Position numbers and translations under genes: made by a program. The notes below the pieces were generated by a model, which was given only the letters and a program-made list of their open reading frames with translations, was not told the origin of the DNA and made no database searches. Shown in pieces: positions 4,568 through 45,489 of a stretch of DNA of 64,000 nucleotides. Every line of letters starts with the position of its first letter. The first letter of the stretch is position 1. Source of the DNA: Escherichia phage AV116; the sequence record OR352946.1; one strand, given 5' to 3'.

Positions 4568-7279
4568 TCAAAAATCAAACATATCGAACAGAGATGCTTT
4601 CTTCTCGTAATCGAGTTTAGCTGCTGATGTGAATCCTTCAAGTGGTTTAATAAATGTCTTCTCAAGGAGAACAGTGTAGTCCATCCAATGAAGTACATCG
4701 TCTTTAATTAAATCTGTGATTTCAGTACCAGAAGGCCATGCGATACATTTATCACCGAATGGGTTTCCTTCACGTAAAGGCAGAACATATACTTTTTCAC
4801 CTTCTACAACTTGCGGTGCATCGATATTACCTTTGATAGCCCGGTTATACGTCAGAATTCCACGAATATGGAACGGGCATTTAGGACCAGGGAATCCACC
4901 GACATCATATTTAGCAATGTTATTCGCAGAAGATACCGACGCGATGCTAATATAATTCAATTGACGGAATTCTTTTTCAAACTCTTTAAAATATTCTTGT
5001 AATGATTCTTCACCTTCTTGAAGCATACGACGAATACATTCTTTAAGAGCTTTCTGTACTGCTTTAGGGGTCGAAGATTTCTGAGTCTCTAGACCCATGA
5101 TTTTGAGTTTAGGCTCAGCGTAACGAGTGCCTTCCATATCCCACACGTTTAATGCATAACGTTTCTTACCAGTCCAGAATCCACCAATACCTTTAGAACC
5201 GAGCGGAGGACCAGCGATAGCTTCTCGGTCCATGAACATTAAGTGTTGTTTATTGTTCATGTATTCACACATTTCACGGAAACCTCTATCAATAGCTGGT
5301 TCCATACGTTCACGTGCAAACTTATCTAAGAAGTCTACCCAATGGTTGGTATCACGGAATTTAGATTCACCAACCTTATCGATAATTTTATCAGCAGATA
5401 CGTAAATAGAGTCTGTATCACCATAAAGAACGAAAGCTTCACCTTCTGTACCACAAACTTCATTCAGATATTCATTAACTTTACGTTCAATCCACTGTAA
5501 AGCCATTTGCCCGAATGTTGTGATTGCAGTAGCATTACGCAAATCATAATAACGGAACCAAACGTTGCCAAGTGCACCATAAAGTGAGTTGATAAGCAAT
5601 TTACGGTTAATTTGTGCAGTCATACCTGCAACTTCAGTACGTTGAGCTCTAAACAACATTTCATTAAGAGATTTAGCAGACAACTTTTTAATCTTTTCTT
5701 TAATCTCATCACTGAAGTCGAAACGATAATCAACATCTAATGGTTCGTCAATAGAAAGATTAGGATTATGCAATGCCTCTTTAATTATTTCACCATTACG
5801 TTGAGCTGCAAGCATGTAACCTTTATGTTCTTTACGTTGATTAAAGACCTTAGTGATTTCAGTTGGAACTACACCATCACGGTCTTTATAATACATCATG
5901 CCGTTAGGAGAACAACTGTACACATCTGAAGGACGTTCAGCGATTGCGTTAATATAATCATGTAATGGAGCTACTTTAAACGTTCCTGCTATTGTTTCTG
6001 GGCTAATATTCACTTGGCGAATGATGCTTGGATACAGAGATGTAAGGTCGAAACTCATTACATATTTGTATCGATTTGGAATAGGTTCCTTAACAAAAGC
6101 GCCGGGATAAGGTTGAACCGGGTGAGAACGACCTTGTGGAATCACCTTGTTCTGCTCTTTAAGGCTATTAAAAATAATAGCATCCCATGTTTTAATTGGG
6201 CTAAACACAGATTGAATCTGTATCTTAGCATAATAACCCATGTCCAAGCTCAAGTTGATGAACTGACGCTTAGCATCAATTTGCAATACACGATACACGT
6301 CGATAATGTTATAAGAAATATATCGTTGGTGATTGCTTTCACGAAGCTTAGAAATAGGGCCGTCATATTTCAGTTTACCAACGTTCAATTCAAATTCTGA
6401 AATGTAATCCAGAGAATACGACGGTTGATTGGTAAAAGAGAATTTTTTGTAAAGGTCAATGTAATCAAGAACAGAGATACCGAACAATGTAATGATTTCA
6501 CGAGAACCATACATGTTTTCGATAACTTTAACACGAGTTTTACGATGTGGCGATAAACGTTTCGCAGTAGATTCGCCAAAAATATTCTTGATTCGGTTAT
6601 ACACATATGGAATATCAAATGACTCAACGTTCCATCCGGTTAAAATGACAGGAGTTTTCTGTTGCCAGAAATTGAGATATTCCATCAATAATTCTTTTTC
6701 GTTATCGAACGGCATATAAATGATTTTATCGATAATTTCAGATGGAACTTCATCACCACCTTGTTCTTGAAGCTTAGCAGCGATTTCAATAGACCATTCT
6801 TCTACATTACCATACGGAGAATTCAATAGATCAAATACGTAGAACCTGTCGTCAATTGAGTCATAATGGGTGATAGCATCAATAGGATGCTTTGCTTGTG
6901 CCGGCTCAGGGAACCCGTCCGGAGATGTTACTTCGATGTCGAAGTTAGCCACACGAATTTTTGTATGGTCGTATTTGATTTCATAGTTATAAGTGTCAGA
7001 CAAATACGCCAATTTGAAATCGTCCATGCCAAGTGCTTCAAGTCCGATATCTTCCATGCGTTTAATCCATTGGGAGGCATCACGCATATTAGCGAACAAC
7101 TTACGAGTACACGGCTTACCGTAGATATCGAAATATTTCGTAGCCTGACTTTCTGGACAATGAGCAAACAGTGATGGTTTATATTCTACTTCACGAGTAC
7201 GTTCACGGCCATTAGAATCGATGTAACGTTCAAAAATTGAATCACCAATCTGTTCAACCGTTAAGTAAAATTCTTTCAT
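4568..7279 (-). CDS. 43: DNA polymerase (family B) gp43
   Basis: 903 aa; recognisable T4 gp43 sequence with exonuclease and polymerase motifs (YGDTDS); flanked by regA-62-44-45 as in T4. Confidence 0.97.
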   Translation of the reverse strand: MKEFYLTVEQIGDSIFERYIDSNGRERTREVEYKPSLFAHCPESQATKYFDIYGKPCTRKLFANMRDASQWIKRMEDIGLEALGMDDFKLAYLSDTYNYEIKYDHTKIRVANFDIEVTSPDGFPEPAQAKHPIDAITHYDSIDDRFYVFDLLNSPYGNVEEWSIEIAAKLQEQGGDEVPSEIIDKIIYMPFDNEKELLMEYLNFWQQKTPVILTGWNVESFDIPYVYNRIKNIFGESTAKRLSPHRKTRVKVIENMYGSREIITLFGISVLDYIDLYKKFSFTNQPSYSLDYISEFELNVGKLKYDGPISKLRESNHQRYISYNIIDVYRVLQIDAKRQFINLSLDMGYYAKIQIQSVFSPIKTWDAIIFNSLKEQNKVIPQGRSHPVQPYPGAFVKEPIPNRYKYVMSFDLTSLYPSIIRQVNISPETIAGTFKVAPLHDYINAIAERPSDVYSCSPNGMMYYKDRDGVVPTEITKVFNQRKEHKGYMLAAQRNGEIIKEALHNPNLSIDEPLDVDYRFDFSDEIKEKIKKLSAKSLNEMLFRAQRTEVAGMTAQINRKLLINSLYGALGNVWFRYYDLRNATAITTFGQMALQWIERKVNEYLNEVCGTEGEAFVLYGDTDSIYVSADKIIDKVGESKFRDTNHWVDFLDKFARERMEPAIDRGFREMCEYMNNKQHLMFMDREAIAGPPLGSKGIGGFWTGKKRYALNVWDMEGTRYAEPKLKIMGLETQKSSTPKAVQKALKECIRRMLQEGEESLQEYFKEFEKEFRQLNYISIASVSSANNIAKYDVGGFPGPKCPFHIRGILTYNRAIKGNIDAPQVVEGEKVYVLPLREGNPFGDKCIAWPSGTEITDLIKDDVLHWMDYTVLLEKTFIKPLEGFTSAAKLDYEKKASLFDMFDF

Positions 7280-38449: not shown

Positions 38450-38731
38450 CTATTTTTCTGAAGCGCCTGAAATATATTTTTCAAGACGCTGTTTCATCAA
38501 CGAGCCGTTCTTAGCGATTTCTTCCGGTTTATCGCACATACGCAACAATGCTTCAAGCTTAGCGATATCGCTGGTACGTTCAAATTTGCGAGTATCTATC
38601 TTACTAGCAAGTTCAGAAATACGTGCTAATAGACTTTCAGCTTCAACCAAAGCTGCACCTAGCTTAGTTGCAAATGTGTCAGTAGCTTCGTTAAGAATAG
38701 ATTCTGATAAAAATTCACTATATGTTTTCAT
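38450..38731 (-). CDS. internal-protein-like protein with capsid-targeting sequence
   Basis: [11 protein letters not shown]-terminus; ATG overlaps the lysozyme stop (ATGA). Confidence 0.55.
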
Positions 38732-39216
38732 ATATACGCTTTCCAAGTTCCTGTTTTAAATGTTGAGATTACGCGTTTCGCGCGATTAGGTGTCTGACGA
38801 TACCATTTAGATTGGGCTAGATTTACTGCCGCTTCATCCCAACGTTTCTGTTGAAGCATACGAAGAGAATTAGTAAAACCGGCGACTCCTGCTACACCCA
38901 TTTGGAAGACCATATTGACCAATGCACACCGACGAACTGCATCTAAAGAATCATATACCGGTTTAAGTTTAGCATTACCCAAGATTCCGCGGACGGCTTT
39001 ATCAACGTCTTCATTAAATAGCTTTTCAGCCTCATCAAGGGTAATTGTACCGTTGCATTTACGACCGATCATTCTGTCAAGTTCAGCTTTAGCTATGGCT
39101 AAAGACGGGTTCTTTGTTACTAAATGGCCTATGCCAATTGTCCAAAAGCCTTCAGTGTCTTTGTATAAAGTCAGTCTAAGACCTTCGTCATTACGAAGCA
39201 TTTCAAATATATTCAT
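38728..39216 (-). CDS. e: lysozyme (endolysin) e
   Basis: [27 protein letters not shown] matches T4 lysozyme; GGAGG before the ATG at 39214-39216. Confidence 0.95.
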
Positions 39217-39709: not shown

Positions 39710-39935
39710 CTCGGTCCCATGATTTGGCCATTAATTCGGACATAAATTCTTCAATGCGCGTTTCTTTAGATGGACTTTCACTATTAGAGACCGCAAGTTT
39801 GTAATCTGCAATAGGACAGAACATATCAAGGTCCATATTAAGGTCGTCTTTGATTTTTTCTTCTGACACATCTTTATCGTATGTGTACAGATAACTATCA
39901 CATGATTCTGATTTAATGTAAATTGCTATACTCAT
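39699..39935 (-). CDS. hypothetical protein
   Basis: Start set at internal ATG (MSIAIYIK) overlapping the upstream stop. Confidence 0.4.
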   Translation of the reverse strand: MSIAIYIKSESCDSYLYTYDKDVSEEKIKDDLNMDLDMFCPIADYKLAVSNSESPSKETRIEEFMSELMAKSWDRDDE

Positions 39936-40156
39936 CTCAAATTCCTGCATTCGGTAATAAAACGTTCAACTTCATTATTCTTGTCTTTATGTTCTTGTAA
40001 ACTACTTTTAATAAGATTAATAATGATAGCGACAGTGCCGCCGCCAATGATGCCACCAATAATACTTACGATAGTAGATGTTAATAAGATAGCAATAATA
40101 TCAACAAAACCGAAAGAACTCACCTTAGTACTAAAAAAACCATATAGACGGTACAA
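39932..40156 (-). CDS. small membrane protein, FIxECR C-terminal family
   Basis: 74 aa; one TM helix; C-terminus ...VERFITECRNLR. Confidence 0.45.
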   Translation of the reverse strand: MYRLYGFFSTKVSSFGFVDIIAILLTSTIVSIIGGIIGGGTVAIIINLIKSSLQEHKDKNNEVERFITECRNLR

Positions 40157-40400
40157 ATATAATCCATCCTGTTATCCATTGGCACTTATTGAAAAACTTT
40201 TCAAGCTCAGCTTGAGTTGTTCGTATTACTTCATCGATAGGTTGATATCCGTTAATGTATCTGTTCACGATAATACCTGCTGACTGGTCGATTTTAAATT
40301 CTTGGCAAATATGTTTCACTAAGTATGATGGACATCCTGTCCAATCTACTGAATAGTATGAAATACCTTCATTGCCGTCGTCTATATTATTGTTAATCAT
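40131..40400 (-). CDS. hypothetical protein
   Basis: 89-aa ORF. Confidence 0.4.
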   Translation of the reverse strand: MINNNIDDGNEGISYYSVDWTGCPSYLVKHICQEFKIDQSAGIIVNRYINGYQPIDEVIRTTQAELEKFFNKCQWITGWIIFVPSIWFF

Positions 40401-41086
40401 TACCAGCCTTCCATAGGGAATTCCAGATAAACTTGAGCATTGACACGAATTTCATTGGTAATCTTTTTAACTCGGTCTGTATTACGAGATACACGTCCGA
40501 ACCAACGCCATCCGTTACTAATTGCACGAGAACCAGTGTGCCATGTTTGCCAATCAAACTGAAGAAGAGTACGATCTGGAGCTTCCCATTTCTCTAGTTC
40601 GCCTTTTTCGATTTTTTCGAGGACTTCTTTGTGCCACTGGCGATAGATAAGTTCGCCATCAGGAATCTGACTGAACTCTGCAGTTCCTGTTGCAAAATGA
40701 GTAGGACACACATCAGCGTTAACAAGACCAAGAATATGTTCAGACAAATAGCGAGGATTGTCATAGTCAGGTTGTCCTGCAGTAATAAAATGTTGACCAA
40801 CCGGAATATCCGGGCGTGGTACGTCATCATGGTGATAACCAGGAATAGCAGGATACCAAACAGGCATCAGCATGTGGACTCGTGAATCAAATACTACATC
40901 CGAGTCTTTCCAATCGTCAGGGAGATTTTGGATAAAGCTACGAGTAATTGGACCGCCATTATCAAAAGCAAAATTCAAATCGCAATTAAAGAACATAGGC
41001 TCGTTTTTAATCTGGTCATTTTTAATCGCATGAGCAAAACCACCTACTGCACGAGCTTGACTATTAAACACTTTAGAACTATTCAT
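40400..41086 (-). CDS. hypothetical protein
   Basis: 228-aa ORF preceded by GAGGAAAATAAT. Confidence 0.55.
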   Translation of the reverse strand: MNSSKVFNSQARAVGGFAHAIKNDQIKNEPMFFNCDLNFAFDNGGPITRSFIQNLPDDWKDSDVVFDSRVHMLMPVWYPAIPGYHHDDVPRPDIPVGQHFITAGQPDYDNPRYLSEHILGLVNADVCPTHFATGTAEFSQIPDGELIYRQWHKEVLEKIEKGELEKWEAPDRTLLQFDWQTWHTGSRAISNGWRWFGRVSRNTDRVKKITNEIRVNAQVYLEFPMEGW

Positions 41087-41087
41087 A

Positions 41088-41393
41088 TTATTTTCCTCGG
41101 CATTCTTTAATGAAATTTTCTAGATTGGTAGATTCAATAGCTTTTTTACGAGCTTCTGCATGTTCTTCTTCGGACAATTTACATTTATAATTGACCCAGA
41201 CATTATGGTCGAAACTAGTCGTGGCATATAATAACAATGCTCCAGCGAATAGCAAAAACGGTGATAAGAATACAAAACCAGGAACACCATCCATACTGTA
41301 AGCCTTTTGTAATACTGCAACAGAAAGAGCTGCGTAAAAAGGTGATGCAAATATTGTTAAAAGACCAATTCGGTTGGTTTCGCCTAATTTCAT
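41088..41393 (-). CDS. membrane protein, FIxECR C-terminal family
   Basis: 101 aa; two TM helices; C-terminus ...LENFIKECRGK. Confidence 0.5.
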   Translation of the reverse strand: MKLGETNRIGLLTIFASPFYAALSVAVLQKAYSMDGVPGFVFLSPFLLFAGALLLYATTSFDHNVWVNYKCKLSEEEHAEARKKAIESTNLENFIKECRGK

Positions 41394-41420
41394 AATATTC
41401 TCCTCATGTTTTAATAGGAC

Positions 41421-41449
41421 TACTATAACATAATCCTATAATTATGTAA
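41421..41449 (-). promoter_or_regulatory. T4 early-type promoter (TTTACA-N17-TATAGT)
   Basis: Read from sequence upstream of the ORF at 41393. Confidence 0.5.
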
Positions 41450-41463
41450 ACAGTTTTGCGAAA

Positions 41464-42420
41464 TTATTTGAAAGGTTTTACCATATGAAAATTTTCTTTA
41501 AACCGTTTGATGTAATCATTTTTGCCGAGCTTATGATACATAGCCACTACTTCATAATAGTTCTCGTATGCGTACTCACGGAACCAACCGGAGGTGATGC
41601 TTGTGCAGACTTTTTCTAATGCCATCATGAAACTGGCTTCAGGGTTAATTTTAAAGTCATTAGGAATCTGAGAACGTTCTAACGCTAGTACACATGATTC
41701 TTCGTATACGCCGGCCAATTTGACCATTTCCGGTAATGATTCGAACTTCTCGCGTGAGGTCATGACTTCAGAACCATCTTTCATATAAAATGTATACGCT
41801 GGACGGTCTGTTAGTGCAATGGCTTCATGAATAGTATCATGGTCATATGTATAGATGTCATCTTTAAAGAACGCACTTTTAGAAGTGTCAAGAACTGGGT
41901 GAGCATAATTCAAGGTTTCTTTCTGGCGTTTCAGCATAATTTCAGTAAGTTCATCGTTCAGTGTAACACCTTTACCACGAAGATACTGAATATGGTTCAT
42001 AGTCTTTAAAAAGAATGGATTATTTTTCTTGAAACGATGAGACATCTTAATTGCAAGACATATCTCAGGAGTTGCCCAGTAAAACCCGTTCAAACGGTCT
42101 TTAGTCAAATTTTTCTTGGCGTATTTTAAAAGGTCATAAGAAGACGTGAAATCTTCAGGAGTGAGTTCACCGACTAATTCACGGACATTAGTGATTGCCG
42201 GAACAATATATGCTTCAAAATGAGTTTCGCGTCCATTATGGAAGCATTTGAAAACTTGGACATCAGGGTTATCTTGGTGAACATATACACCCATCATTTG
42301 ATTTTTGAATGCGTTCCAAGAACCTTGGTCCGCAATAAAGTCCCAATCACTATTTTTAATAGCGCTAGAATCAATAAGACCGTGATAGTGAAGTGCACGA
42401 GAACCAATAACTAACATCAT
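41464..42420 (-). CDS. hypothetical protein
   Basis: 318-aa ORF. Confidence 0.55.
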   Translation of the reverse strand: MMLVIGSRALHYHGLIDSSAIKNSDWDFIADQGSWNAFKNQMMGVYVHQDNPDVQVFKCFHNGRETHFEAYIVPAITNVRELVGELTPEDFTSSYDLLKYAKKNLTKDRLNGFYWATPEICLAIKMSHRFKKNNPFFLKTMNHIQYLRGKGVTLNDELTEIMLKRQKETLNYAHPVLDTSKSAFFKDDIYTYDHDTIHEAIALTDRPAYTFYMKDGSEVMTSREKFESLPEMVKLAGVYEESCVLALERSQIPNDFKINPEASFMMALEKVCTSITSGWFREYAYENYYEVVAMYHKLGKNDYIKRFKENFHMVKPFK

Positions 42421-42448
42421 AATATTTTCCTCGGATTAATTCATTAAC

Positions 42449-42700
42449 TTAAATTTCACGACATGCGATATTATATTCATCCCAGAGGTCATCATGTGAA
42501 GCTTCTACCAATGGAACGATTGTACCGTTTATGTCTTCATTATAAGGGCAAATTGTACAGTGCGCATCTTCGAATCGGATGCCTTTGTGTTCAGATTTTT
42601 TATAACGCATATCGAATATCTTTGCAAACTTTTCACGAGTAATAGTTTTAGCAACCACTTTGGTTCCAATACTTTCGTAATAAATCATTGTGGACTCCAT
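42449..42700 (-). CDS. hypothetical protein
   Basis: 83-aa ORF with four Cys. Confidence 0.45.
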   Translation of the reverse strand: MESTMIYYESIGTKVVAKTITREKFAKIFDMRYKKSEHKGIRFEDAHCTICPYNEDINGTIVPLVEASHDDLWDEYNIACREI

Positions 42701-42720
42701 TTAATTTGATAGGACTACTA

Positions 42721-42749
42721 TAACATAGCCCTATCTTGTTGTAAACTGT
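42721..42749 (-). promoter_or_regulatory. T4 early-type promoter (TTTACA-N17-TATAGT) with flanking inverted repeat
   Basis: Read from sequence upstream of the ORF at 42700. Confidence 0.5.
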
Positions 42750-42750
42750 T

Positions 42751-42948
42751 TTAGCAAGAATAACTAGATGATACCCAGCCTTGAACAGTGATACTATTGT
42801 GGGATAATGAGATCGCGTCCTGGAGATTCAGACCTGCGTTATCTTCAATCCATAATGTAACTTCTTCACGTTCTTCTGTTGCAATTTGGAACAGGTTTTC
42901 CAGGGCAGCTACTGCCGTACGTACAGCACAATCTAATTCACGAGACAT
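42751..42948 (-). CDS. small protein, GWVSSSxxC C-terminal family (paralog 3)
   Basis: 65 aa; ends ...QGWVSSSYSC. Confidence 0.5.
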   Translation of the reverse strand: MSRELDCAVRTAVAALENLFQIATEEREEVTLWIEDNAGLNLQDAISLSHNSITVQGWVSSSYSC

Positions 42949-42957
42949 ATTGTTTCC

Positions 42958-43230
42958 TTAGCAAGTGTGAGAAGATGCGACCCAACCACCAGTTTCGAGG
43001 CTCAGGTTGTAGTCGTATTGGTAAACGTCGGCCCATTCAGCATAGCCGTTTTTTGTACAACGTTCAAGATCAGCTTTAAGATGTCCGGGTGAATGATAGG
43101 TTCCGCCCATACCATAAGCCGGATACAAATTAAACGTGGTGTTTTGTTTATCAGCAATTTCTTTGGCAGCCTCAATAGCTGCATAGATTTTTGCTACAGC
43201 TTCAGCCAGTTCGGTTTGTTCTTTAGACAT
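42958..43230 (-). CDS. small protein, GWVSSSxxC C-terminal family (paralog 2)
   Basis: 90 aa; ends ...GGWVASSHTC. Confidence 0.5.
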   Translation of the reverse strand: MSKEQTELAEAVAKIYAAIEAAKEIADKQNTTFNLYPAYGMGGTYHSPGHLKADLERCTKNGYAEWADVYQYDYNLSLETGGWVASSHTC

Positions 43231-43239
43231 AATGATTCC

Positions 43240-43545
43240 TTAGCACAACGCAGAAGACGAAACCCAAGCACCTTCAGTAATAACGTAACCATTACCTTCA
43301 CGCTTAACATCGCCACCATTATTTTCAATTTCATTTTTCATCCACTGGGATACGATTTCACCCTTAGGATAATAAGTACGACCGCTACCATAATCACCTA
43401 CAGAAAATGATACGGCATATTGGTCTGCGATCTTTGTTGCTTCTTCTTCGATACGTTCAGCTTGATTCAGAAGTTTATAAATTGCATCTGAAGCGGATTT
43501 GGCATCATTAAACTCTGGTACTTTAATTTCAATAATCTTACTCAT
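43240..43545 (-). CDS. small protein, GWVSSSxxC C-terminal family (paralog 1)
   Basis: 101 aa; ends ...GAWVSSSALC. Confidence 0.5.
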   Translation of the reverse strand: MSKIIEIKVPEFNDAKSASDAIYKLLNQAERIEEEATKIADQYAVSFSVGDYGSGRTYYPKGEIVSQWMKNEIENNGGDVKREGNGYVITEGAWVSSSALC

Positions 43546-43901
43546 TTTCTACATTCCTTAATAAAGTTTTCGATTGTTTCATTTTCACGTTTAGCTAGAA
43601 GTTCATTATAACTAATCATTTGAGAAGCGTAAATCTTTTTATTTTTCTTGTTATGGTTTATAAAATCGTAGTAAAAATAGACTACAGTACAAAATGATGC
43701 GATGGATGCAAAGGCTTGGGTATACCGTAAGTCCTGCCATTGGTCTGTGAATCCACCAGTGTTCCCTATAAATCCTAACACAACGCCGTCAATAAGAAAT
43801 CCAACTAATCCAAAGGCAAATCCCATGCCAATACTCATAATAAAAATTAGAATGTTCTCACCAAGAGAAGGCCATATGGTTAAGAGTTGAGGCTTTTGCA
43901 T
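43542..43901 (-). CDS. membrane protein, FIxECR C-terminal family
   Basis: 119 aa; TM helices; C-terminus ...IENFIKECRK. Confidence 0.5.
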   Translation of the reverse strand: MQKPQLLTIWPSLGENILIFIMSIGMGFAFGLVGFLIDGVVLGFIGNTGGFTDQWQDLRYTQAFASIASFCTVVYFYYDFINHNKKNKKIYASQMISYNELLAKRENETIENFIKECRK

Positions 43902-44305
43902 CTTATTTCCTTAACGAATTCCATAGCTTCTTCATATTCATACTTTTTAACAGCTTCATCATACTGAGCTTGGGCTTTTGCGCACTGAACTTTCCATTCT
44001 CTTAATCGGGCTCTGTGATGACGGCCTTGGTGCCAATATCCTACCCAATTAATAGGCATTAATAAAAACGGTACAATAAGTGGTGCGACGAACATTAATG
44101 AAAATGCTGCATCAGACGATATAACTTCACTAGAATCTAAAACAGCTCCTATAATCATAAAGATTAAAAATGCTAAAGCTAAAATAGGGCCAAATAATAC
44201 TTCATTTGGGATTAATTTACGCTTGTATTCATACGCCCAGGGCTTACTTGGCATGTATAGGGTTGGCTTTGACATATTCTCTACATTCCATAATAAATTG
44301 CTCAA
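43880..44305 (-). CDS. membrane protein (related C-terminal motif EFVKEIRC)
   Basis: 141 aa; two TM helices. Confidence 0.5.
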   Translation of the reverse strand: MSNLLWNVENMSKPTLYMPSKPWAYEYKRKLIPNEVLFGPILALAFLIFMIIGAVLDSSEVISSDAAFSLMFVAPLIVPFLLMPINWVGYWHQGRHHRARLREWKVQCAKAQAQYDEAVKKYEYEEAMEFVKEIRCKSLNS

Positions 44306-44867
44306 GGATTAAATTGTTAGTGAAATTAGGACTAACAACCATAGTTTCATAAAGCGCATCAATAGCACTTAAAGCATCAACTCTTTTAAGCAAAGGCTTG
44401 CCTTCATACATAGTTTCAGAATCGATGATTAACGTAAAGTAATATTTTTTATTATCGACTAGAACTTCTGTATCGATATAAAACATATTAGACCTCAGAA
44501 GCTTATCTCTAAAGCCATAATAATCTTCAGAGCGTTCGCTGATATATTCCCATTCAGTGTTTAAACAACAAACAGACCACGTAGGAGCAACGAAATCAGT
44601 GAATCTAATATCATGGTCTGCAACTAGTTTAGCAATAGCTCCGATATCATGAATCATAATACCTGGGGCTAATAAAGATTTTCTGCTATGGCTAGCCGTT
44701 TTCTCGGTGGTCTCATAAGAAGACGACCAGTACCATTTACGTCCAGTTGCAACATATCGTAATGAATCAACTAAAGACGTAGGTGGATTTACCTTATCTC
44801 GGAACTCTTCGAACATTGAGTCAATATCATTATTTTGGTTTCGCATGTTAACTCCTTTATTATCCAA
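44244..44867 (-). CDS. hypothetical protein (C-terminal QFIMECR motif)
   Basis: 207-aa ORF. Confidence 0.5.
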   Translation of the reverse strand: MDNKGVNMRNQNNDIDSMFEEFRDKVNPPTSLVDSLRYVATGRKWYWSSSYETTEKTASHSRKSLLAPGIMIHDIGAIAKLVADHDIRFTDFVAPTWSVCCLNTEWEYISERSEDYYGFRDKLLRSNMFYIDTEVLVDNKKYYFTLIIDSETMYEGKPLLKRVDALSAIDALYETMVVSPNFTNNLILEQFIMECREYVKANPIHAK

Positions 44868-44895
44868 AAGGAGGACCGGAGTCCTCCGTATTATT

Positions 44896-45489
44896 TTATT
44901 TCAAAGAGTTAATATATTCTTGTACATCAGCAGAAGTGGTTTCGACACCAGCTGGAGTGCCATTGAACGTTTCAACACGAGTCAGAGTGTCTTCGATATC
45001 AACCTTAGTCAGTGCAGCGATTTCAATTACATCATCAGCCGTAGAGATACCAAGGGCATTAGCTGCTCGAGTTTCACGAATGTATTCGAGTTTGATTGCC
45101 AGATTCTGACGAGCATCATCAAGTTCAACCACCTTACGAGCAATTTCAATTCGCATAGCGGCATACCCGTCAGCTTTTGTATTAAGTTGTTCGGCAGTTC
45201 GACGATACAGAAGACCAAGCTTAGCATGCATGGTAACATCTTGTCCTTCAGCCAAGAGCTTACGAATTTCACGTTCCTTAGAAGCGGCTTGCTTGTTCTT
45301 TTCATTAACAAGTTCGCGAATACGTTTTTCTTCATTAATAGATTTAACAGAAGCCGTTTTTAGTTCTTTGATTTGGGTAATCAACTTATCTGCAGCTGCG
45401 TTATACTGTTCTTCGACAGTCAGATTTTTAGCCATAGCAGTACCCAGTTTAGTGCGGATGAATTCAACAAGTTTTTTCAGTGTGTTCAT
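44896..45489 (-). CDS. coiled-coil protein (possibly PspA/IM30-like)
   Basis: Start set at ATG ([10 protein letters not shown]) preceded by AAAGG; long heptad-like helical sequence. Confidence 0.5.

What the first reader, a model, noticed from the sequence alone, without database searches (positions are those of the whole stretch)
39932..44867. Family of small membrane proteins sharing a C-terminal F-I-x-E-C-R motif that coincides with the downstream ribosome-binding site
At least four ORFs (39932.., 41088.., 43542.., 44244..; a fifth at 43880 is degenerate) end in ...FI[KTM]ECR. The codons for ECR(K/G) overlap the Shine-Dalgarno and start of the next gene, yet the nucleotides differ (TGC CGA vs TGT AGA). 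This may be a paralogous membrane-protein family, a dual-coding translational-coupling signal, or both.
Basis: seen in the sequence. Interest (0 to 1): 0.5.

Follow-up and report, generated by a model that had tools for sequence, protein, structure and literature searches.

The report
Shared tail motif in T4-type proteins
Five neighbouring genes of this RB69-like (T4-type) phage encode otherwise dissimilar proteins that all end in the same short helical motif (Phe-Ile/Val-x-x-Cys-Arg); the motif is kept almost unchanged across distant relatives of T4, so it is a protein-level signal of still unknown function and not a ribosome-binding signal.

Summary
The window is an RB69-like Mosigvirus. F-I-x-E-C-R occurs exactly four times in all six frames of the 64 kb. 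All four lie 1-11 residues before the stop of neighbouring minus-strand genes: e.5, e.3, RB69ORF133c and e.2. Gene e.4 carries a variant, F-V-K-E-I-R-C.

The '39932' ORF is only the C-terminal half of e.2, which is split here by an A7/A6 homopolymer change. e.5 is a soluble 200-aa protein, not a small membrane protein.

The core F-[IV]-x-x-C-[RK] recurs 2-5 times per genome in the gene cluster after e.6 in T4-type phages of at least eight genera. It sits on at least 12 sequence-distinct families, both two-transmembrane (2-TM) and soluble. In the whole T4 genome it occurs only in e.3 and e.5.

All synonymous Cys, Arg and Phe codons are used. The distance to the next start codon ranges from 1 to 77 nt, and the motif persists where a spacer follows. 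Selection therefore acts on the peptide. The RBS overlap is ordinary gene packing, served by Arg codon choice.

No similarity between the main families survives removal of the motif. Most likely it is a shared cytoplasmic docking or assembly helix. The function is unknown, and T4 knock-downs show no fitness defect.

The parts
44244..44846 (-). e.5 homologue (200 aa, soluble); motif F-I-M-E-C-R at 44280-44297, followed by 11 codons that overlap the start of e.4
   Evidence: RB69 annotation; PHROG 2607 at 1.5e-95; motif position. In the 28-sequence family alignment (14-47% identity) the only invariant columns are N96, F184, C188 and R189. All 22 further 50%-cluster representatives read (of 27 hits among 1.84 billion) carry F-[IV]-x-x-C-[RK]. 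The AF2 model places the motif in the C-terminal helix 179-194.
43880..44275 (-). e.4 homologue (131 aa, 2 TM); variant motif F-V-K-E-I-R-C at 43901-43918. The R-C-K-S codons are also the M-Q-K-P start of e.3 in another frame.
   Evidence: (PHROG 2604). T4 e.4 ends FVKESRCKSQS. Gaprivervirus e.4 ends EFIKEVRNGTA.
43542..43901 (-). e.3 homologue (119 aa, 2 TM); motif F-I-K-E-C-R at 43548-43565, then K and stop. The next ATG is at 43545 (ATGA overlap) and the SD AAGGA lies in the K-E codons.
   Evidence: (PHROG 2330). The AF2 model shows helix 13-45 and one continuous helix 53-118 running from TM2 to the motif. T4 e.3 ends EFVIDCRKIK.
41088..41393 (-). RB69ORF133c homologue (101 aa, 2 TM); motif F-I-K-E-C-R at 41097-41114, then G-K and stop. 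The SD GAGGA lies in the R-G codons and the next ATG is at 41086.
   Evidence: (PHROG 9798; weak hit to the C-terminal half of the e.2 family PHROG 2203, E 0.0016).
39932..40400 (-). e.2 homologue, frameshifted here into 40131..40400 and 39932..40156; motif F-I-T-E-C-R at 39944-39961. The SD AGGA lies in the R-N codons and the next ATG is at 39935.
   Evidence: RB69 e.2 is one 163-aa ORF. The window has one extra base in the homopolymer at 40133-40139. PHROG 2203 hit at 7.6e-54 with the RB69 sequence.
44896..45489 (-). e.6 homologue (197 aa), the most conserved gene of the cluster, always immediately upstream of the e.5-type gene (context; candidate partner)
   Evidence: 88% identical to T4 e.6, against 47% for e.5, 53% for e.4 and 35% for e.3. 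Present in 1109 phage records. The e.6 + e.5-like pair stays adjacent in Aes012 and Margaery in a different genome context.
44864..44887 (-). Terminator-like hairpin GGAGGACUCCGGUCCUCC followed by UUUU, between e.6 and e.5
   Evidence: Read in the sequence. The T4 record L13089 annotates a stem-loop at the same place and no promoter before e.5-e.2.

Best explanation
The thing is a short C-terminal peptide motif, not a nucleotide signal. Its consensus is [L/I]-E-x-F-[I/V]-x-x-C-[R/K]-(basic). It lies on an alpha-helix, with the hydrophobic positions -3, 0, +1 and +4 on one face.

It ends a set of co-transcribed, non-essential accessory proteins of T4-type phages: e.2, e.3, e.5, RB69ORF133c and others, plus e.4 with V/I/S in place of C. 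These proteins otherwise have different sequences and architectures. In the 2-TM members the motif sits at the tip of a ~35-residue charged helix that continues from TM2 into the cytoplasm. In e.5 it sits on the last helix of a soluble alpha/beta domain.

The most likely function is a common docking or assembly element in the cytoplasm at the inner membrane. Either the tails bind one shared partner, or they bundle with each other and so tether e.5 to the membrane proteins. The obvious phage candidate for a shared partner is the very conserved, always adjacent e.6; a conserved host protein is the alternative.

The overlap with the downstream ribosome-binding site follows from gene packing. The phage accommodates it by choosing AGG or CGA-GG Arg codons when the next start is 5-12 nt away.

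Shown: the motif exists, is specific to this cluster, is deeply conserved, is selected at the amino-acid level, is predicted helical, and does not depend on an RBS. Inferred: cytoplasmic location (positive-inside rule), the interaction function, and the identity of the partner.
For: - Cluster specificity: four exact copies in the window and none elsewhere. In the whole T4 genome F[IV]..CR occurs only in e.3 and e.5.
- Breadth: the motif occurs 2-5 times per genome downstream of e.6 in nearly all of the 34 IMG/VR loci (e.6 identity 55-100%). It is also present in T4, RB69, UPEC07, WG01, Entb_45, ABTNLsp5, KP185, Aes012 and Margaery.
- Heterogeneous carriers: the 134 unique carrier proteins fall into at least 12 BLAST-distinct families, 2-TM and soluble.
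- Amino-acid-level selection: all synonymous codons are used. In e.5, F, C and R are three of the four invariant columns at 14-47% identity. 22 of 22 further representatives carry the motif. The window's e.3 and ORF133c share ENFIKECR, yet 5 of those 8 codons differ synonymously.
- Logo: hydrophobic residues at -3, 0, +1 and +4, E at -2, basic residues after R.
- Cys preference: with position +4 masked, 56 of 65 distinct tails have Cys and the rest have V, S, A, M or I.
- Helix: AF2 models of e.3 and e.5.
- Independence from the RBS.
- Dispensable accessory genes: e.2 is frameshifted here, e.3 is destroyed in LF82-31 and OLB35, T4 e.2 is truncated, and T4 knock-downs are called 'Not Fit' (PMC11879866 supplement).
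Against: - No partner has been identified, and no interaction was or could be computed; the tools fold single chains only.
- Near-invariant Cys and Arg would also fit a chemical role (thiol or modification site). The V/I/S substitutions in e.4 and in Kanagawavirus e.3 argue against that for those members.
- The e.6 link rests on synteny alone, and most loci were fetched through e.6, which biases co-occurrence.
- Knock-down of T4 e.2-e.6 gave no fitness phenotype, so nothing functional is anchored experimentally.
Confidence: 0.5

Rival explanations
1. Remnant of common descent. All carriers descend from one ancestral small protein by tandem duplication and fusion. The motif is simply the slowest-evolving piece (a helix cap or packing element needed for folding or stability of each protein on its own), with no shared partner.
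For: - The genes lie in tandem in one transcription unit.
- e.3, e.4, ORF133c and the C-terminal half of e.2 share the same build: 2 TM, a charged helix, then the motif.
- ORF133c weakly hits the C-terminal half of the e.2 PHROG.
- Some hhalign matches extend over 52-107 columns: e2-tm9, e2-tm11, e3-tm10, tm11-e4.
Against: - With the motif removed, no inter-family similarity reaches 40% except e3-tm10.
- Soluble alpha/beta e.5 and the small soluble families carry the same motif on unrelated bodies.
- A purely intramolecular packing element would not be expected to stay nearly invariant on such different scaffolds.
Confidence: 0.25
2. The tail is an amphipathic membrane-surface or regulatory tag. 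It would be either a C-terminal membrane-targeting helix (as in MinD or FtsA) that brings e.5 and the small soluble proteins to the membrane, or a recognition tag for a protease or a modifying enzyme that acts on the Cys-Arg pair.
For: - C-terminal position, one hydrophobic face, and basic residues after the motif.
- Co-occurrence with membrane proteins.
- Near-invariant C and R.
Against: - Membrane-targeting helices are sequence-degenerate (established knowledge), whereas F, C and R here are almost invariant.
- The 2-TM members are already membrane-anchored, and their motif sits ~35 helical residues from the membrane.
- Cys is replaced by V, I, S, A or M in 9 of 65 distinct tails, which does not fit an obligatory thiol chemistry.
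Confidence: 0.12
3. One reading: the conserved element is the nucleotide sequence, a dual-coding translational-coupling signal (SD plus context) for the downstream gene, and the peptide is a by-product.
For: - In the window the next start lies 0-10 nt after the Arg codon in all five genes, and the SD lies in the K-E, R-G or R-N codons.
- Arg codon choice correlates with the distance to the ATG.
Against: - All synonymous codons are used at F, C and R.
- The SD sits at different places relative to the motif, and after it in 23 of 24 junctions with 13-35 nt spacing.
- The motif is kept in families followed by a 29-43 nt intergenic spacer.
- F and I/V codons have no SD content.
- The junction RNAs fold no better than shuffles (z = -0.5 to +2.1).
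- A gap of 12 nt or less, too short for a separate RBS, is found at 19 of 33 sampled T4 junctions without producing this motif elsewhere.
Confidence: 0.05
4. Recombination linker: the 3' ends are short homology patches that let gene modules be swapped or inserted in this hyperplastic region (as proposed for the promoter-stem-loop cassettes of T4-type phages), and the peptide is incidental.
For: - RB69-type phages carry a ten-gene insertion between e.3 and e.2 relative to T4, whose flanks both end in FIKECR (e.3 and ORF133c).
- OLB35 shows a chimeric e.3/e.4 tail, and LF82-31 keeps only the e.3 tail.
Against: - Paralogous tails in one genome differ at most synonymous sites: 5 of the 8 shared codons between e.3 and ORF133c. 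There is thus no usable nucleotide homology and no sign of recent gene conversion.
- Conservation follows the amino acids across genera.
- OLB35 is an UNVERIFIED record.
Confidence: 0.03

Closest known systems
T4 genes e.2, e.3, e.4, e.5 and RB69ORF133c (PHROGs 2203, 2330, 2604, 2607, 9798; Pfam PF26876 precomputed for e.5-type proteins)
   Same: The window genes are orthologues of these: 96-100% identical to RB69-group proteins and 35-53% to T4.
   Different: All are annotated as hypothetical or 'predicted membrane protein'. The families are kept separate in PHROGs, and the shared tail motif that links them is not annotated in any record or paper I could search.
Capsid targeting sequence of T4 internal proteins (MKTYQEFIAE, cleaved by the gp21 prohead protease; Mullaney and Black 1996, from memory)
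   Same: It is a ~10-residue peptide shared by otherwise unrelated, dispensable proteins encoded in the neighbouring hyperplastic region. Its x-E-F-I-A-E core resembles R-F-I-A-E-C-R of Dhakavirus e.5. A CTS-bearing protein lies next door at 38450..38731 ([10 protein letters not shown]).
   Different: The CTS is N-terminal and needs the Glu for cleavage. Here the motif is C-terminal, Glu at +3 is present in only ~38% of families, and Cys-Arg, absent from the CTS, is the conserved part. The carriers are membrane proteins co-transcribed downstream of T4 promoters annotated with -35/-10 signals, not head proteins.
C-terminal docking peptides that bring many different proteins to one hub (sliding-clamp-binding tails of T4 gp43/gp55/gp33, the SSB C-terminal tail, the FtsZ C-terminal peptide; established knowledge)
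   Same: A short conserved C-terminal element sits on proteins with unrelated bodies. The rest of each protein diverges fast while the tail stays fixed.
   Different: There is no sequence resemblance to any of these motifs. The partner is unknown and binding has not been shown.
Translationally coupled, overlapping genes with the Shine-Dalgarno inside the upstream ORF
   Same: ATGA overlaps or gaps of a few nucleotides, with the SD in the last codons of e.2, e.3, e.4 and ORF133c. Arg codon choice serves the SD.
   Different: This is the normal state of the sampled T4 early region (19 of 33 junctions). It explains neither F, I/V and C nor the motif's presence in front of spacers.
Amphipathic C-terminal membrane-targeting helices (MinD, FtsA)
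   Same: C-terminal, helical, one hydrophobic face, flanking basic residues.
   Different: Those helices tolerate wide sequence variation. Here F, C and R are nearly invariant, and most carriers already have transmembrane segments.

Membership tests
T4-type e.3 / e.4 / e.5 / e.2 / RB69ORF133c protein families | Full-length profile match to the family model | tested here: met
   PHROG hits over the whole length, all: 2330 at 2.5e-49, 2604 at 2.7e-64, 2607 at 1.5e-95, 2203 at 7.6e-54 (RB69 e.2 sequence) and 9798 at 5.2e-67.
T4-type e.3 / e.4 / e.5 / e.2 / RB69ORF133c protein families | Conserved position between e.6 and nudE/e on the same strand | tested here: met
   The gene order matches RB69 and, minus the ten-gene insertion, T4.
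One paralogous family comprising all motif carriers | Detectable sequence similarity outside the shared motif | tested here: not met
   hhalign on family alignments with the motif removed gives no pair at 40% probability or more, except e3-tm10 at 66%. The alignments are shallow (2-25 sequences), so distant homology among the 2-TM members is not excluded.
One paralogous family comprising all motif carriers | Common architecture | tested here: not met
   2-TM proteins of ~100-130 aa, an N-domain + 2-TM protein (e.2), a soluble alpha/beta protein of 180-315 aa (e.5) and soluble 92-162-aa proteins all carry the motif.
Dual-coding / translational-coupling nucleotide element | Conservation at the nucleotide level, including synonymous sites | tested here: not met
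   Codon counts: TGT 72/TGC 62; CGT 36, AGA 35, AGG 23, CGA 13, CGC 10, CGG 1; TTT 99/TTC 35.
Dual-coding / translational-coupling nucleotide element | Fixed register between the element and the downstream start codon | tested here: not met
   The Arg-codon-to-ATG distance is 1-77 nt in 83 distinct junctions. The SD lies inside the motif in some and after it in others.
Dual-coding / translational-coupling nucleotide element | RNA structure that occludes or exposes the downstream RBS | tested here: not met
   The five window junctions (76 nt each) have z-scores of +1.5, +1.1, +2.1, +0.5 and -0.5 against shuffles.
Regulatory nascent (arrest) peptides | Fixed distance of the conserved peptide from the stop codon or the stalling site | tested here: not met
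   The distance from motif end to stop is 0-15 residues.
Regulatory nascent (arrest) peptides | Ribosome stalling at the peptide | not testable with these tools
   Needs ribosome profiling or toeprinting.
T4 capsid targeting sequence | N-terminal location, with a gp21 cleavage site [L/I]-x-E | tested here: not met
   The motif is C-terminal in every carrier. Glu at +3 is present in only 38% of families by weight.
PeSL-type mobile promoter/stem-loop cassette | Early promoter plus stem-loop between genes | tested here: not met
   The motif lies inside coding sequence with no hairpin. Two promoter-like repeats do exist elsewhere in the cluster, at ~42692-42746 and ~41397-41451.
Amphipathic membrane-targeting helix | Short C-terminal amphipathic helix with basic flank | tested here: met
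   The logo shows hydrophobic residues at -3, 0, +1 and +4 and K/R at +5 to +8. AF2 predicts a helix.
Amphipathic membrane-targeting helix | Membrane binding of the isolated tail | not testable with these tools
   Needs localisation of tail-GFP fusions or liposome binding.
Hub-docking C-terminal peptide | Conserved tail on proteins with unrelated bodies | tested here: met
Hub-docking C-terminal peptide | Direct binding to a common partner | not testable with these tools
   No multimer prediction or interaction data are available. e.6 is a candidate by synteny only.

The most novel reading that the evidence does not exclude
The tails form a plug-and-socket system. A conserved hub, either e.6 (which stays next to an e.5-type gene even in Aeromonas and RB43-type phages) or a conserved host machine at the inner membrane, accepts any protein that ends in [L/I]-E-x-F-[I/V]-x-x-C-R. 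T4-type phages can then exchange, gain and lose membrane and soluble accessory 'adaptors' freely (2-5 per genome, at least 12 families) while keeping only the plug constant. The near-invariant Cys-Arg could additionally be a site of regulated chemistry (thiol or arginine modification).
Probability: 0.3. Interest if true: 0.7.

Novelty: new variant of a known kind. Interest (0 to 1): 0.5.

Why it matters
The e.2-e.6 block is part of the unexplained gene content of T4, one of the best-studied viruses. Its genes are conserved across many genera but have no phenotype and no annotation (PMC11879866 supplement).

A near-invariant 6-10-residue tail shared by otherwise unrelated proteins gives a concrete experimental handle. 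A single peptide can be used as bait. Three point mutations (F, C, R) can be tested in several genes at once. The motif also groups separate 'hypothetical protein' families, each now filed in its own PHROG, into one functional set.

The case is also a clean example for annotation. An apparent dual-coding signal at gene junctions can be separated from a peptide motif by codon usage and by spacing statistics across relatives.

Tried and rejected
- **Database matches.** Pfam, NCBIfam and PDB sequence searches of e.2-e.6, ORF132c and ORF134c gave nothing informative. The only hits were DUF7275/DUF7277 for ORF134c and Phage_FRD3 for frd.3.
- **e.6 as PspA/ESCRT-III-like.** This was my recollection of its coiled-coil look. 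Pfam and PDB sequence searches give no support, so I dropped it.
- **Metal or disulfide site built from one Cys per protein.** Unlikely. The tails are predicted cytoplasmic, the copy number varies from 2 to 5, and e.4 and Kanagawavirus e.3 have V/I/S at that position.
- **gp21 cleavage site or capsid targeting sequence.** Rejected because of the wrong terminus and a non-conserved Glu.
- **First homologue search with e.3 alone.** It found only 3 close relatives. The search for related loci with the e.3 alignment failed for lack of a conserved stretch, so the e.6 alignment was used as anchor instead.
- **Literature searches.** They returned nothing on these genes beyond their listing as unknown.

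Full report
**What the window is.** The region is 96-97.6% identical to RB69-group phages (Mosigvirus: AV118, JK42, mogra, RB69). All genes between 39.7 and 45.5 kb are on the minus strand. By the RB69 annotation the finding's ORFs are:
- e.5 (44244..44846)
- e.4 (43880..44275)
- e.3 (43542..43901)
- RB69ORF133c (41088..41393)
- e.2 (39932..40400)

In RB69, e.2 is one ORF of 163 aa. The window has one extra base in a homopolymer (A7 at 40133-40139; A6 in RB69, mogra, LF82-31 and L016).

**Checking the observation.** F-I-x-E-C-R occurs exactly four times in the six-frame translation of the 64 kb. The downstream start codons lie 2-10 nt after the Arg codon, or overlap the R-C codons in e.4. e.3, e.4 and ORF133c are small proteins with two hydrophobic segments. 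e.2 has an N-terminal soluble part before its two segments. e.5 has no hydrophobic segment.

**Conservation elsewhere.**
- T4 e.3 ends EFVIDCRKIK, T4 e.5 ends KFVKECREYVK..., and T4 e.4 ends KFVKESRCKSQS. T4 e.2 is a truncated form without the tail, but other Tequatroviruses have a full e.2 ending NFITECRKLK.
- In the rebuilt complete T4 genome, F[IV]..CR occurs only in e.3 and e.5.
- I used the well-conserved neighbour e.6 as an anchor to fetch 34 IMG/VR loci (e.6 identity 55-100%). I added Gaprivervirus, Dhakavirus, Kanagawavirus, Jiaodavirus, Tulanevirus (Aeromonas) and Pseudotevenvirus records.
- Nearly every locus with sequence downstream of e.6 has 2-5 ORFs there with F-[IVL]-x-x-C-[RK] near the C-terminus.
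- The 134 unique carrier proteins fall into at least 12 BLAST-distinct families: e.2, two e.5 groups, e.3, ORF133c, several further 2-TM families, and three or four small soluble families.
- With position +4 masked, 56 of 65 distinct tails have Cys. The others (V, S, A, M, I) are e.4-type or e.3-type membrane proteins.

**Peptide or nucleotide signal?**
- All synonymous codons are used: Cys TGT 72/TGC 62; Arg CGT 36, AGA 35, AGG 23, CGA 13, CGC 10, CGG 1 (Lys 16); Phe TTT 99/TTC 35.
- Within the window, e.3 and ORF133c share ENFIKECR, but 5 of those 8 codons differ at synonymous sites.
- In a 28-sequence e.5 alignment at 14-47% identity, the only invariant columns are N96, F184, C188 and R189.
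- An exhaustive profile search of 1.84 billion cluster representatives found only 27 e.5 relatives. All 22 further sequences I read carry the motif.
- The distance from the motif to the stop is 0-15 residues. The distance from the Arg codon to the next ATG is 1-77 nt. Three families keep the motif in front of a 29-43 nt spacer.
- The five window junctions fold no better than shuffled sequence.
- Having the downstream RBS inside the upstream gene is the norm here. The gap is 12 nt or less at 19 of 33 junctions in a T4 early region and at 10 of 14 in the RB69 cluster.
- What remains of dual coding is codon choice. Arg is AGG in 15 of 30 junctions with the ATG 5-12 nt downstream, where the Arg codon contributes the SD in 23 of 30. 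Arg is CGT in 16 of 24 junctions with the ATG 13-35 nt downstream, where the SD lies after the motif in 23 of 24.
- A true overlap constraint is visible in e.4. Its R-C-K-S codons are the M-Q-K-P start of e.3 in another frame, in both T4 and RB69. That may explain the displaced Cys there.

**One paralogous family?** Profile-profile comparison of the family alignments gives 58-94% probability matches. Between the main families (e.2, e.3, e.5, ORF133c) these cover only the 12-20 motif columns. A few pairs with the minor families run longer (e2-tm9 77 columns, e3-tm10 107 columns). After cutting the proteins three residues before the Phe, no pair reaches 40% except e.3 with one related 2-TM family. 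ORF133c weakly hits the C-terminal half of the e.2 PHROG. Common descent of some 2-TM members is therefore possible, but it cannot be shown, and the soluble carriers do not fit it.

**Structure and location.**
- AF2 models e.3 as helix 13-45, a short loop, and one continuous helix 53-118 from TM2 to the motif (pLDDT 63).
- AF2 models e.5 as an alpha/beta domain whose last helix (179-194) holds the motif (pLDDT 61.7).
- Basic residues directly after TM2 (for example NHNKKNKK in e.3 and QGRHHRARLR in e.4) place the tails in the cytoplasm by the positive-inside rule. This is an inference.

**Context.**
- e.6 is far more conserved than the carriers: 88% identity between T4 and the window, against 47%, 53% and 35% for e.5, e.4 and e.3.
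- A terminator-like hairpin separates e.6 from e.5. The T4 record L13089 annotates no promoter before e.5-e.2.
- In Aeromonas phage Aes012 and Citrobacter phage Margaery, e.6 sits in a different genome neighbourhood but is still followed directly by a long protein containing MFVDYCRR or KFIHSCKK.
- The genes are dispensable. e.2 is broken here. e.3 is destroyed in LF82-31 and OLB35, where its last ~30 codons and the RBS for the next gene are retained. T4 e.2-e.6 are listed as function 'Unknown' and knock-down 'Not Fit' in the CRISPRi-ART data set (PMC11879866, supplementary files 8 and 15).

**Interpretation.** The best-supported reading is a protein-level, helix-borne C-terminal motif that marks a functional set of accessory proteins. 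It most probably acts as a common docking or assembly element in the cytoplasm at the membrane. e.6 or a conserved host protein is the candidate partner. Its existence, specificity, conservation and amino-acid-level selection are shown. The interaction function is inferred. The rivals are set out with their tests in the rival explanations:
- a remnant of common descent with a purely intramolecular role
- a membrane-surface or regulatory tag
- a recombination linker

I found no description of this motif in the records or the searchable literature. The absence of a report is not proof of novelty.

Noticed in passing
window 43240..43545, 42958..43230, 42751..42948 (all minus strand); L009 4935-6558; L010 4827-6070: A second C-terminal motif family is interleaved in the same cluster. 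Three tandem small proteins end in GAWVSSSALC, GGWVASSHTC and QGWVSSSYSC, with Cys as the very last residue. Kanagawavirus and Dhakavirus phages carry 5-6 tandem copies with the same W-x-x-S-S-x(1-3)-C end (PHROGs 899 and 4882). Tandem small proteins with a fixed Ser/Cys end, next to two very conserved proteins of unknown function, look like peptide-precursor arrays. This was not tested.
   Followed up: partly
window 40133-40139: A homopolymer A7 (T7 on the coding strand) splits e.2 into two ORFs. RB69, mogra, LF82-31 and IMG/VR locus L016 have A6 and an intact 163-aa e.2. This is either a sequencing error or a real inactivation.
   Followed up: partly
window ~42692-42746 and ~41397-41451 (minus strand): Two near-identical intergenic cassettes, GTTTACA-N17-TATAGT overlapping an inverted repeat (TAGGxCTA...TAGTCCTA), lie after ORF136c and after ORF134c. 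They resemble the early-promoter/stem-loop cassettes described for T4-type hyperplastic regions (from memory).
   Followed up: no
L049 8998-10496 (Aes012); L050 8998-10571 (Margaery): The e.6 gene and the following e.5-like gene (290 and 315 aa, with FVDYCR and FIHSCK) remain adjacent although the surrounding genes are entirely different (nrd genes, gene 55.2). This suggests a conserved two-gene module.
   Followed up: partly
L006 ~6950-7090 (LF82-31); L004 7064-7357 (OLB35, UNVERIFIED record): In both, e.3 is destroyed by an early stop plus an internal deletion. Its last ~30 codons, with the motif and the RBS of the next gene, are kept. OLB35 also has a chimeric ORF joining the e.3 pre-motif sequence to a duplicated e.4 tail.
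   Followed up: partly
window 40400..41086 (ORF132c homologue) and 41464..42420 (ORF134c homologue): ORF132c is extremely conserved: its last 32 residues are identical in the window, RB69, Dhakavirus ABTNLsp5 and Kanagawavirus Entb_45. It has no family or structure match. ORF134c matches only DUF7275 + DUF7277.
   Followed up: partly
window 43899-43910 (e.4/e.3 junction): The e.4 codons R-C-K-S are read in another frame as the e.3 start M-Q-K-P. Both readings are conserved between T4 and RB69-type phages. This is a true dual-coding overlap of about 20 nt.
   Followed up: partly
window 38450..38731 (minus strand): A small protein begins [10 protein letters not shown], which matches the capsid targeting sequence of T4 internal head proteins (recognised from memory). 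It lies just downstream of the lysozyme gene e (38728..39201).
   Followed up: no
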